This document shows positions 11,622 through 12,813 of a DNA stretch of 64,000 nucleotides, one piece after another. Within the stretch, counting starts at the first letter, position 1. The number at the start of each line of letters is the position of its first letter. The DNA comes from the human T2T-CHM13v2.0 reference genome, Homo sapiens, in NCBI RefSeq assembly GCF_009914755.1, contig NC_060934.1, one strand, 5' to 3'. The position numbers were made by a program, and so were the translations under genes. The notes under the pieces were generated by a model. That model did not search any database, had not been told where the DNA came from, and saw only the letters and a program-made list of their open reading frames with translations.

Positions 11622-12813
11622 CGGGGAGGTGGCCTGCAGGAGACAGAGGGATTGACAGGATGTTGTGTGTAGCAGCTTTCCTCTGGATACCAATGCTGAG
11701 GACACCACATCGGGGCTCTCCTGCCCACTGCTGTGGGTCGCCACCTCCAAGATAACCCCAATGCCAGTGACATCCTTCCCATCAGTCACCACTCCAGCAC
11801 CAGAAACCTATAAAGGCTGCAACAGCTGTGTTTCCTGTTTTAAAGCACTGTTAATAATAGCTGCTTTTGCATAGAATGTAAAGAAGATGAGAGCTACTGT
11901 TCACATAATTCAACAGTTATAGACTGTCGTGTGGTGAACAGGACAGACTTCTGTTCTGTGCCAACTGCCACTCTGTTGCCAATCAATTCCACAGTGACAC
12001 ATAGATCCAGTGTTTCACACTCAGTGAATCTGAGCAGATTTGCTGAGGCTTTGTATGTTGAGTTCACAATGACTTTTTATGGATTTTGTGGAAATCTTGG
12101 GAAACAGAGAAGCCTAAAGGAAATTATAATTCCCATTTTCCAGAGTTAAAACCACAAGTCTGCCTTTCTCTTCTACAACTTCCACCACAGTTACTACATC
12201 AGGTACAATAAATACCACTGTCCTTGTCTTTGGTGTACAGGCTATAATTTTCTTTCTTTATAAATTCTACACATCTAAGAAACAAACTTATACTCTGTAA
12301 GCAGACCCATTACACTGATAAGGACTGGAGATTCATTCACCTAACTCACTGAAACCAAAATACTATCTTTCAAGATGTCCCACATGGAAGACGCTATTCC
12401 AGGATCTTTCGATTTCCAAAAGATGCATATAAGCTATTTGAGAGCATCATCCCTGAAGGAAAAATCAGTTAAATCATTTTGTTCAACAGGAAAATTTTAA
12501 ATATTCTGCACGAATCCTTGTGGCAGTCTTATTTTAAATGGTTGCTGCTTTGGGATTATGTTTCTTTTTTTCTTGACATGCCAAACGTAACTTTCTGTAA
12601 GTGACAGAAAATGCTGTCTTGTGCAGACAATGTCAGGACTCTTAGCAGTTTAAATTTAGTCACTTTAAAGCCTGAAAGCTGCATTATTTTCATCCTAACT
12701 CAAGATATAACTCAGTGAACAGAATTGAGAAGAGTGTGCCAAATGAGTATCAATCAGGTGGATTGTGGCCTATCATGTCAAAGTGGCATAAATTTATCAA
12801 TCTAGTAATACTA
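11622..12813 (+). pseudogene. CD164 (endolyn/sialomucin) processed pseudogene
   Basis: Fragments [36 protein letters not shown] and VLVFGVQAIIFFLYKF...TL* (TAA 12298-12300) match recalled CD164. No introns; 5' and 3' UTR similarity; start codon decayed (ACA 11707); A-tail; 13/15 TSD AAAAAAGAACAATTT 11607-11621 vs AAAAAATAATAATTT 12814-12828. Confidence 0.9.

What the first reader, a model, noticed from the sequence alone, without database searches (positions are those of the whole stretch)
11995..12145. Probable fossil cassette exon of CD164 preserved in a retrocopy
Seen: within the processed pseudogene, ...AATTCCACAG (ends 11994) and TTAAAACCACAAGTC... (starts 12146) are separated by 151 nt with no TSD and no poly(A). 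The insert is stop-free in the CD164 frame (ORF 11931..12149, ...[54 protein letters not shown]), and the stop comes only just inside the next exon. Knowledge (recalled): ...TCTACAG|CTAAACCC is the CD164 exon 4/5 junction, a region with known exon-skipping isoforms. Inference: the retroposed mRNA carried an extra exon between exons 4 and 5. It was either a frameshifting poison or secreted-form exon, or a 50-aa in-frame exon with one later indel. Its 3' end ATTATAATTCCCATTTTCCAGAG resembles the MIR core, which suggests an exonised SINE.
Basis: partly seen in the sequence, partly recalled or inferred. Interest (0 to 1): 0.8.

Follow-up and report, generated by a model that had tools for sequence, protein, structure and literature searches.

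The report
Extra CD164 exon kept in pseudogene
An old, dead retrocopy of the human CD164 gene on chromosome 10 preserves a 151-base alternative exon taken from CD164 intron 4; this is a tidy but ordinary example of a pseudogene recording a past splice form.

Summary
Window 11622-12815 (+) is a processed CD164 pseudogene, and 151 nt (11995-12145) sit exactly between its exon 4 and exon 5. This insert is 86% identical over its full length to one 152-nt piece of CD164 intron 4 (G000:C6:110553790-110553941, minus strand), 169 nt downstream of exon 4. Neither intron flank of that piece is present in the retrocopy. Its divergence (K2P 0.155) equals that of the other retrocopy segments, so it arrived with the original mRNA.

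In the human parent the piece follows a pyrimidine tract and AG. A Trachypithecus francoisi gene model (P0011, "isoform X5") uses the same acceptor, but with a GT donor only 29 nt in. The 152-nt form is followed by CA, not GT, in today's human gene. How its 3' end was spliced is therefore unresolved.

Lengths of 151, 152 and 29 nt all shift the frame, which points to a poison or truncating exon rather than an in-frame cassette. The proposed MIR origin is not supported.

This is a new example of a known phenomenon, and interest is modest.

The parts
11604..11621 (+). Candidate 5' target-site duplication of the retrocopy
   Evidence: family D6: 11604-11621 and 12811-12828 match at 15 of 18 positions. 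The repeat is A-rich, so it overlaps whatever remains of the poly(A) tail. Inconclusive.
11622..11803 (+). CD164 5'UTR and exon 1 of the retrocopy (start codon lost, internal deletion of about 75 nt)
   Evidence: aligns to parent reverse-strand coordinates about 6503-6760 at 73-76% identity in the blastn pieces. The ATG position reads CACATCG in the retrocopy.
11804..11883 (+). Exon 2 of the retrocopy
   Evidence: 83-86% identity to C6:110557616-110557703. It joins exon 1 with no intron.
11884..11958 (+). Exon 3 of the retrocopy, preceded by 3 extra bases (11884-11886) that give K-E-D where human CD164 has K-D
   Evidence: 87.5% identity to C6:110555939-110556010. The KED form is seen in the tarsier, Sapajus and bat proteins.
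11959..11994 (+). Exon 4 of the retrocopy (36 nt against 39 nt in the parent)
   Evidence: alignment: 27 of 36 aligned bases match. It ends ...CCACAG, matching parent ...CTACAG|gt.
11995..12145 (+). The extra exon ('exon 4a', long form), 151 nt, derived from CD164 intron 4
   Evidence: 86% identity over query 1-151 to C6:110553790-110553941 (-), E 7.9e-41, and the only other copy in the genome; neither intron flank of the parent copy is in the retrocopy; 130 of 151 bases match, with one 1-nt gap, K2P 0.155 +/- 0.035.
11995..12023 (+). The part that corresponds to the 29-nt short form of the exon used in the langur gene model
   Evidence: P0011 reads exon 4, then VTHSSSVLYS, then frameshifted exon 5. 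This equals the human parent exon 4 + 29 nt + exon 5. The human parent has AG before and GT after these 29 nt.
12146..12202 (+). Exon 5 of the retrocopy (57 nt)
   Evidence: 82.5-84% identity to C6:110548445-110548506. It begins TTAAAACC, against parent CTAAACCC.
12203..12815 (+). Exon 6 (end of the coding sequence and proximal 3'UTR) of the retrocopy, with an internal deletion in the transmembrane-coding part
   Evidence: 80-86% identity to C6:110546418-110546972. The match ends 22-26 nt after an AATAAA in the parent 3'UTR.
12811..12828 (+). A-rich tail remnant and candidate 3' target-site duplication
   Evidence: family D6.

Best explanation
The 151 nt are an alternative exon ('exon 4a') of CD164. 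The spliceosome included it between exons 4 and 5 of the mRNA that L1 machinery later reverse-transcribed into ARHGAP19 intron 1, tens of millions of years ago. The exon lies 169 nt into intron 4 and uses a normal pyrimidine-tract/AG acceptor that is still used in a living Old World monkey gene model. It shifts the reading frame, so transcripts carrying it would be nonsense-mediated-decay targets or would encode a truncated protein lacking mucin domain II and the membrane anchor. It is not a 50-aa in-frame insert. Shown: homology to intron 4, exact exon-boundary junctions on both sides, absence of the flanking intron sequence, the same age as the rest of the retrocopy, and the acceptor and its use in langur. 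Inferred: that a donor site stood directly after ...CCAGAG at the time. Today's human gene has CA there, so this donor has either decayed or been deleted in the parent lineage, or the junction arose in one of the rival ways listed. The fate of such transcripts (decay versus a secreted form) is also inferred.
For:: the 151 nt match a single other place in the genome, C6:110553790-110553941 (-), at 86% over their full length; the five other matches are colinear on the same strand of C6 and correspond to CD164 exons 1, 2, 3, 5 and 6; parent exon 4 ends CTACAG|gt, exon 5 starts ag|CTAAACCC, and the parent piece is preceded by ctaccttttgtgacag; a 440-nt parent query (169-nt upstream mini-intron, the piece, 119 nt downstream) matches the retrocopy only at query 166-321. 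K2P for the insert is 0.155 +/- 0.035, against 0.154 (exon 2), 0.141 (exon 3), 0.201 (exon 5) and 0.155 +/- 0.018 (exon 6 and 3'UTR); 1 of the 18 CD164 proteins returned (P0011, Trachypithecus francoisi isoform X5, 157 aa) reads ...ANFT-VTHSSSVLYS-LNPQFSPPLLQ.... This aligns residue for residue with human exons 1-4 + the first 29 nt of the piece + frameshifted exon 5, so the acceptor is in use today. The last two exon bases (AG) fit the exonic side of a donor consensus (recalled knowledge).
Against: The human parent reads CCAGAG|CAACCA after the 152-nt piece, with no GT or GC at +1/+2. The long form therefore cannot be made by canonical splicing from the present human sequence. No protein containing the long-form peptide was found among the 10 + 8 hits, in a region-restricted search (no candidates) or in the representative library (a single hit that BLASTP does not confirm). 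No paper describing an exon between CD164 exons 4 and 5 was found (searches; passages read). The 3' end of the piece (pyrimidine run + CAG) looks more like an acceptor than a donor, and it shares microhomology with the true exon 5 acceptor. That leaves room for a reverse-transcriptase jump. No other mammalian genome could be examined here.
Confidence: 0.72

Rival explanations
1. The exon was longer: 169 nt, ending at the next usable GT in the parent (TTTTCA|GTGATT, 17 nt past CCAGAG). The retrocopy later lost exactly those 17 nt by a deletion abutting exon 5. It would still be a captured alternative exon, but with a donor that survives in the human gene.
For:: the parent has ...CCAGAGCAACCAAAATGTTTTCA|GTGATT. 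This is similar in form to the donor in use 29 nt into the piece (TCG|GTGAAT). The retrocopy carries several other deletions, in exons 1, 2, 4 and 6.
Against: It needs a deletion whose right edge falls exactly on the exon 5 boundary. My rough estimate is 1-2% for about 6 deletions in 1.2 kb. No trace of the 17 nt remains.
Confidence: 0.1
2. The template was a partly spliced pre-mRNA. Exon 4 was joined to the intron-4 acceptor while the rest of intron 4 was retained. The L1 reverse transcriptase then jumped from the exon 5 acceptor region to the similar pyrimidine-CAG motif at the end of the piece, deleting about 5.3 kb.
For:: the end of the piece (TCATCATCCAGAG in the parent, CCATTTTCCAGAG in the retrocopy) resembles the end of intron 4 (TTTTCATTCCAG), which gives microhomology. 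The missing GT donor fits a non-spliceosomal junction.
Against: A jump within the shared CCAG would give CCAG|CTAAAC. The retrocopy keeps the two further bases AG that follow CCAG in the piece itself, then exon 5 from its first or second base. The jump would have to land on the exon 5 boundary to within 2 nt in a 5.3-kb intron. Retrocopies made from intron-retaining RNA are uncommon (recalled knowledge).
Confidence: 0.1
3. The piece was an in-frame, translated 50-aa cassette exon, and one later indel obscures this.
For:: the retrocopy insert has no stop in the CD164 frame over 51 codons; read in the retrocopy-aligned frames, the parent shows only one stop (TAG at codon 9, which is Tyr in langur P0011) and one 1-nt frameshift.
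Against: The lengths are 151 and 152 nt, neither divisible by 3. The parent has 4 stops in the CD164 frame. About 14 of the 50 aligned residues differ for 21 base differences, so there is no sign of constraint. An open frame of this size occurs in 2.3% of shuffles and 10.3% of real tiles. The only living form is 29 nt and frameshifting.
Confidence: 0.04
4. The exon is an exonised MIR SINE.
For:: 21 nt at retrocopy positions 12123-12143 align to the MIR profile with 18 identities.
Against:: the profile built from 30 MIR copies finds 5 MIRs in the window at E<0.001, but nothing at the exon, the parent copy or its flanks at E<=10; the 21-nt match scores -1.2 bits and 5 of 100 shuffles reach that score. 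The homologous parent positions do not match at all, so the resemblance is partly due to retrocopy-specific changes.
Confidence: 0.04

Closest known systems
Processed pseudogenes as records of parental splice variants (Shemesh, Novik, Edelheit & Sorek 2006, PNAS 103:1364). I saw this only as a reference-list entry; its content is recalled, and the paper is not held.
   Same: A retrocopy carries an exon arrangement that differs from the reference mRNA, and so documents an alternative transcript of the parent gene.
   Different: In this case the recorded exon's 3' splice donor is not present in the modern human parent. I could not check whether CD164 is in that paper's lists.
Trachypithecus francoisi 'sialomucin core protein 24 isoform X5' (P0011, NCBI gene model)
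   Same: It has the same acceptor in intron 4 and the same first 29 nt, encoding VTHSSSVL.S. It also shifts the frame into exon 5.
   Different: It uses a GT donor 29 nt into the piece. The retrocopy reads on for 151 nt. In human, codon 9 is TAG where langur has Tyr.
Published human CD164 isoforms: E1-6, E-delta-4, E-delta-5 (passage of PMC1557671), and the five RefSeq variants over seven coding exons (passage of PMC4510537)
   Same: They involve alternative splicing around exons 4 and 5 of the same gene, and some produce soluble forms lacking the membrane anchor.
   Different: The published forms skip exon 4 or 5, or change the exon 6/7 end. None of the passages read describes an added exon between exons 4 and 5.
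Poison (NMD-triggering) cassette exons
   Same: It is a short intronic exon whose inclusion shifts the frame and brings in a premature stop. In the retrocopy this is TAA at the 2nd-4th base of exon 5; in the human parent it is TAG at codon 9 of the exon.
   Different: There is no evidence here of conservation, regulation or NMD sensitivity. The stop in the long form lies only about 53 nt upstream of the last exon junction, which is borderline for the 50-55 nt rule (recalled knowledge).

Membership tests
Processed (L1-mediated) pseudogene of CD164 | Colinear with the parent mRNA, with all canonical introns missing | tested here: met
   exons 1, 2, 3, 4, 5 and 6 are contiguous in the window and spread over about 14 kb on C6.
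Processed (L1-mediated) pseudogene of CD164 | 3' end at a polyadenylation site, followed by an A-rich tail | tested here: met
   homology ends 22-26 nt after an AATAAA in the parent 3'UTR, and the retrocopy continues with AAAAAAATAATAA.
Processed (L1-mediated) pseudogene of CD164 | Flanking target-site duplication | tested here: inconclusive
   family D6: 15 of 18 positions match between 11604-11621 and 12811-12828. The repeat is A-rich and merges with the tail.
Processed (L1-mediated) pseudogene of CD164 | Disabled reading frame | tested here: met
   the ATG is lost, there are stops (for example at 11875), and there are deletions in exons 1 and 6.
Spliceosomal alternative exon of the parent gene | The homologous sequence lies in the corresponding parental intron, in the same orientation | tested here: met
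   it lies in intron 4, 169 nt downstream of exon 4, on the minus strand like the gene.
Spliceosomal alternative exon of the parent gene | Pyrimidine tract and AG immediately upstream | tested here: met
   ctctaccttttgtgacag|TGACAC.
Spliceosomal alternative exon of the parent gene | GT (or GC) immediately downstream | tested here: not met
   the 152-nt form is followed by CA. The 29-nt form is followed by GT.
Spliceosomal alternative exon of the parent gene | Independent transcript or gene-model evidence | tested here: inconclusive
   one langur model uses the acceptor with the 29-nt form. There is no evidence for the long form. RNA-seq data could not be reached with these tools.
Spliceosomal alternative exon of the parent gene | Same age as the rest of the retrocopy (not a later insertion) | tested here: met
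   K2P 0.155, against 0.141-0.201 for the other well-aligned segments.
In-frame coding cassette exon | Length divisible by 3 and an open frame in the parent | tested here: not met
   the lengths are 151 and 152 nt, and the human parent has 4 stops in the CD164 frame.
MIR-derived exon | Significant similarity to a MIR profile across the element | tested here: not met
   no hit at E<=10 alongside 5 true MIR hits in the window. The 21-nt local match is reached by 5 of 100 shuffles.

The most novel reading that the evidence does not exclude
In the anthropoid ancestor, CD164 made a now-extinct isoform with a 151/152-nt exon 4a that was open in frame and stopped at the TAA at the start of exon 5. 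This would give a secreted sialomucin made of mucin domain I, the cysteine-rich domain and a roughly 51-aa novel tail. The donor of this exon was later destroyed in the lineage leading to humans. What remains is the 29-nt frameshifting version seen in langur and, in human, a TAG at codon 9. On this reading the chr10 retrocopy is the only surviving record of that isoform.
Probability: 0.12. Interest if true: 0.45.

Novelty: new member of a known kind. Interest (0 to 1): 0.3.

Why it matters
The finding adds one concrete case to the known idea that retrocopies freeze past transcript forms. It also points to an unannotated, or at least unpublished, splice acceptor 169 nt into CD164 intron 4. That acceptor, paired with a GT 29 nt downstream, is intact in the human gene.

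CD164 is a deafness gene (DFNA66) and an arenavirus entry factor (titles and passages seen). A frameshifting intronic exon is therefore relevant when interpreting deep-intronic variants. It could in principle be a handle on CD164 dosage.

The missing donor of the long form is a small puzzle about how splice sites turn over. It does not change any larger picture.

Tried and rejected
- **MIR origin.** I built an nhmmer profile from 30 genomic MIR copies. It gave no hit at the exon or its parent flanks. The 21-nt local resemblance is within the range of shuffles.
- **Other genomic copies of the exon or its flanks.** None were found beyond chr6 and chr10, so this is not a young repeat and there is no second CD164 retrocopy to compare.
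- **Rfam scan of 11000-14000.** It returned only Alu-like SRP/miRNA sub-threshold hits outside the retrocopy.
- **Protein searches for a long-form peptide.** There were 10 hits of 43 candidates and 8 of 8 candidates, none carrying the long form. The region-restricted search had no candidates.
- **Representative library.** It gave a single hit, P0019, at 28% identity in a 3585-aa protein. BLASTP does not reproduce it (E 35), so I treat it as spurious.
- **Literature.** Six searches found no paper on a CD164 pseudogene or on an exon between exons 4 and 5. 'CD164P' hits were not pseudogene names as far as the titles show.
- **GC-donor reading.** I considered an exon ending CCAGA with an intron starting GCAACC. 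It needs one more change than the GAG| boundary and has a poor GC-donor context, so I did not adopt it.
- **Later DNA-level insertion or gene conversion.** I rejected this because both edges coincide with exon boundaries and the divergence equals that of the rest of the retrocopy.
- **Soft-masking.** None is present in the files, so no repeat calls could be read from letter case.

Full report
**What is there**

Window 11622-12815 on the + strand is a processed pseudogene of CD164. A 2101-nt query across it matches, apart from itself, five colinear blocks on the minus strand of G000:C6 between 110546418 and 110557703. A more sensitive blastn adds the exon 1 blocks at about 110560241-110560498.

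I read the parent locus and placed the exons by their flanking dinucleotides. Exons 2, 3, 4 and 5 are each bounded by ag...gt. Exon 4 is 39 nt and ends AATTCTACAG|gtaatt. Exon 5 is 57 nt and starts ttccag|CTAAACCC. The conceptual translation of the six exons is a 197-aa sialomucin. It matches the primate CD164 proteins returned, which carry Pfam PF05283.

The retrocopy has the marks of a dead copy:
- It has lost its start codon.
- It carries deletions in exons 1, 2, 4 and 6.
- It ends 22-26 nt after an AATAAA in the parent 3'UTR, followed by an A-rich remnant.
- It is flanked by an 18-nt A-rich direct repeat with 15 of 18 positions matching, which is a possible target-site duplication.

It lies antisense in ARHGAP19 intron 1. 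It is not in the RefSeq table that the hub supplied.

**The observation**

Between the last base of exon 4 (11994) and the first base of exon 5 (12146) there are 151 nt. They have no A-tail and no flanking duplication of their own. In the CD164 frame they are stop-free, and the frame ends at TAA 12147-12149.

This open frame is weak evidence for anything. 2.3% of shuffles (460 of 20000) and 10.3% of real 153-nt tiles of the window (129 of 1252) are also stop-free.

**Where the 151 nt come from**

They match one other place in the whole genome: C6:110553790-110553941, minus strand, at 86% over the full length, E 7.9e-41. That place lies inside CD164 intron 4, in the gene's orientation, 169 nt downstream of exon 4. 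The parent piece is 152 nt long.

I took the parent piece with 169 nt upstream and 119 nt downstream as a 440-nt query. The retrocopy matches only query 166-321, which is the piece itself plus the 4 bases ACAG shared with the end of exon 4. So both stretches of flanking intron were removed cleanly.

The Kimura two-parameter distance between the retrocopy and the parent is:
- 0.155 +/- 0.035 for the piece;
- 0.154 for exon 2;
- 0.141 for exon 3;
- 0.201 for exon 5;
- 0.155 +/- 0.018 for exon 6 and the 3'UTR;
- 0.31 +/- 0.11 for the very short exon 4 (all).

The piece is therefore as old as the rest of the retrocopy and came in with the original cDNA. From recalled primate neutral distances, K of about 0.155 suggests an insertion somewhat before the split of New and Old World monkeys. 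I could not test this with other genomes.

**Splice sites**

Upstream of the parent piece stands ctctaccttttgtgacag, a normal pyrimidine tract and AG. This acceptor is not just plausible. Of the 18 CD164 proteins returned by two searches, one contains sequence from the piece. This is P0011, NCBI's 'sialomucin core protein 24 isoform X5' of Trachypithecus francoisi (157 aa), which reads ...ANFT VTHSSSVLYS LNPQFSPPLLQLPRQLLHQVQQIPL.

A script-made translation of human exons 1-4 + the first 29 nt of the piece + exon 5 + exon 6 aligns with it residue for residue. The one notable difference is that human has TAG where langur has Tyr. So a living Old World monkey gene model uses the same acceptor, with a donor 29 nt further on (TCG|GTGAAT). 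That donor is also intact in human.

The retrocopy instead reads through this donor for 151 nt. In the human parent the long form is followed by CAACCA, not GT or GC. This is the one defining feature of a spliceosomal exon that is not met.

The right-hand junction still falls on the exon 5 acceptor to within a base or two. The retrocopy has CCAGAG (the last six bases of the piece) followed by TTAAAACC, against the parent's CTAAACCC.

**How the 3' end may have been made**

I see four possibilities. Each needs one unlikely event, and I could not separate them without other species.
- (a) A donor stood directly after GAG and has since been lost in the parent lineage, by a small deletion or by substitutions.
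- (b) The exon ran 17 nt further, to TTTTCA|GTGATT, a GT still present in human. The retrocopy later lost those 17 nt.
- (c) The reverse transcriptase jumped between the exon 5 acceptor and the similar pyrimidine-CAG motif at the end of the piece, on a partly spliced RNA.
- (d) A weak GC-type donor one base earlier was used.

In (a), (b) and (d) the piece is a true alternative exon. Only (c) makes its 3' end non-spliceosomal, and even there the 5' end is a true splice.

I favour (a) to (c) in that order, with low conviction. Under (c), a jump in the shared CCAG would not retain the two further bases AG that the retrocopy shares with the piece.

**What the exon would do**

The 151-, 152- and 29-nt lengths all shift the frame.
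- In the retrocopy's version the frame stays open through the exon and stops at the TAA formed at the start of exon 5. That TAA is also present in the parent's exon 5.
- In today's human gene the frame stops at codon 9 of the exon and has 4 stops in all.

Either way the product lacks mucin domain II, the transmembrane segment and the YHTL sorting tail. The transcript is therefore a candidate NMD target or encodes a truncated, presumably secreted form. This is inference.

There is no sign that the 51-codon frame was ever under selection. About 14 of the 50 aligned residues differ for 21 base differences. Read in the retrocopy-aligned frames, the parent shows only one stop and one 1-nt shift. 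But the two sequences are 86% identical, so this is not independent evidence.

**MIR idea**

I fetched 30 genomic MIR copies through a core motif and built a 278-position nhmmer profile. At E<0.001 it finds five MIRs in the window: 30603-30773, 62120-62202, 26228-26339, 56669-56775 and 42459-42549. It finds nothing at the exon, the parent copy or its flanks at E<=10 with filters off.

Searched alone, the retrocopy gives a 21-nt match (-1.2 bits, E 0.26 in 1504 nt) that 5 of 100 shuffles equal or beat. The parent gives no match at the homologous place. The profile is biased towards copies with a perfect core, so a very old MIR fragment cannot be excluded. Nothing supports one.

**Known or new**

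- Passages of PMC1557671 list three CD164 isoforms: E1-6, E-delta-5 and E-delta-4.
- Passages of PMC4510537 speak of seven coding exons and five variants. Isoforms 4 and 5 differ at exon 6 or exon 7. I did not see that paper's figure.
- Neither set of passages describes an exon between exons 4 and 5.
- Six full-text searches found no paper on a CD164 retrocopy or on such an exon.
- I could not consult GENCODE, current RefSeq variants or RNA-seq, so the 29-nt form may well be annotated in human.
- The general principle, that processed pseudogenes record splice variants of their parents, is in print (Shemesh et al. 2006). I saw that paper only as a reference entry, and its content is recalled.

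**Verdict**

The frameshifting reading is favoured over the in-frame one. The MIR origin is not supported. The exon's long-form donor is missing from the present human gene, and this remains unexplained.

This is a new member of a known kind, of modest interest.

Noticed in passing
window 11884-11886: The retrocopy has 3 extra bases (AAG) at the exon 2/3 junction, giving ...ECKEDESYC. Human and the other catarrhine and lemur proteins returned have ECKDESYC, while tarsier, Sapajus and bats have the KED form. This may reflect a tandem acceptor or the ancestral state, and it could help date the retrocopy.
   Followed up: no
window 12790-12828; parent about C6:110546441-110546446: The retrocopy ends after a proximal AATAAA about 610 nt into exon 6. 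Its source mRNA therefore used a short-3'UTR polyadenylation site rather than the full CD164 3'UTR.
   Followed up: partly
window 30603-30773 (-), 62120-62202 (-), 26228-26339 (+), 56669-56775 (-), 42459-42549 (-): These are MIR elements detected by the home-made profile at E<0.001. The one at 26228-26339 lies inside a RefSeq 'enhancer' interval just upstream of ARHGAP19 exon 1.
   Followed up: no
window 11053-11200 (+) and 13712-13991 (-): Alu elements flank the retrocopy, seen as sub-threshold Metazoa_SRP, mir-1268 and mir-3135 matches in Rfam. None interrupts the retrocopy. A (GT)n/(GTTT)n microsatellite sits at about 13677-13712.
   Followed up: no
P0016 (Propithecus coquereli, 131 aa): A sifaka CD164 model joins exon 4 directly to sequence in the 3'UTR region (…NSTVIFSTLEIRCHTGNYIPDLKK). 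It uses an acceptor slightly upstream of the one that gives the EIRCHT... soluble tail seen in P0006-P0009.
   Followed up: partly
parent, about 105 nt downstream of the intron-4 piece (C6 about 110553372-110553672): An antisense Alu with a long T-run lies close to the alternative exon in the human gene. It is not adjacent to the exon's 3' end, so it does not explain the missing donor.
   Followed up: partly
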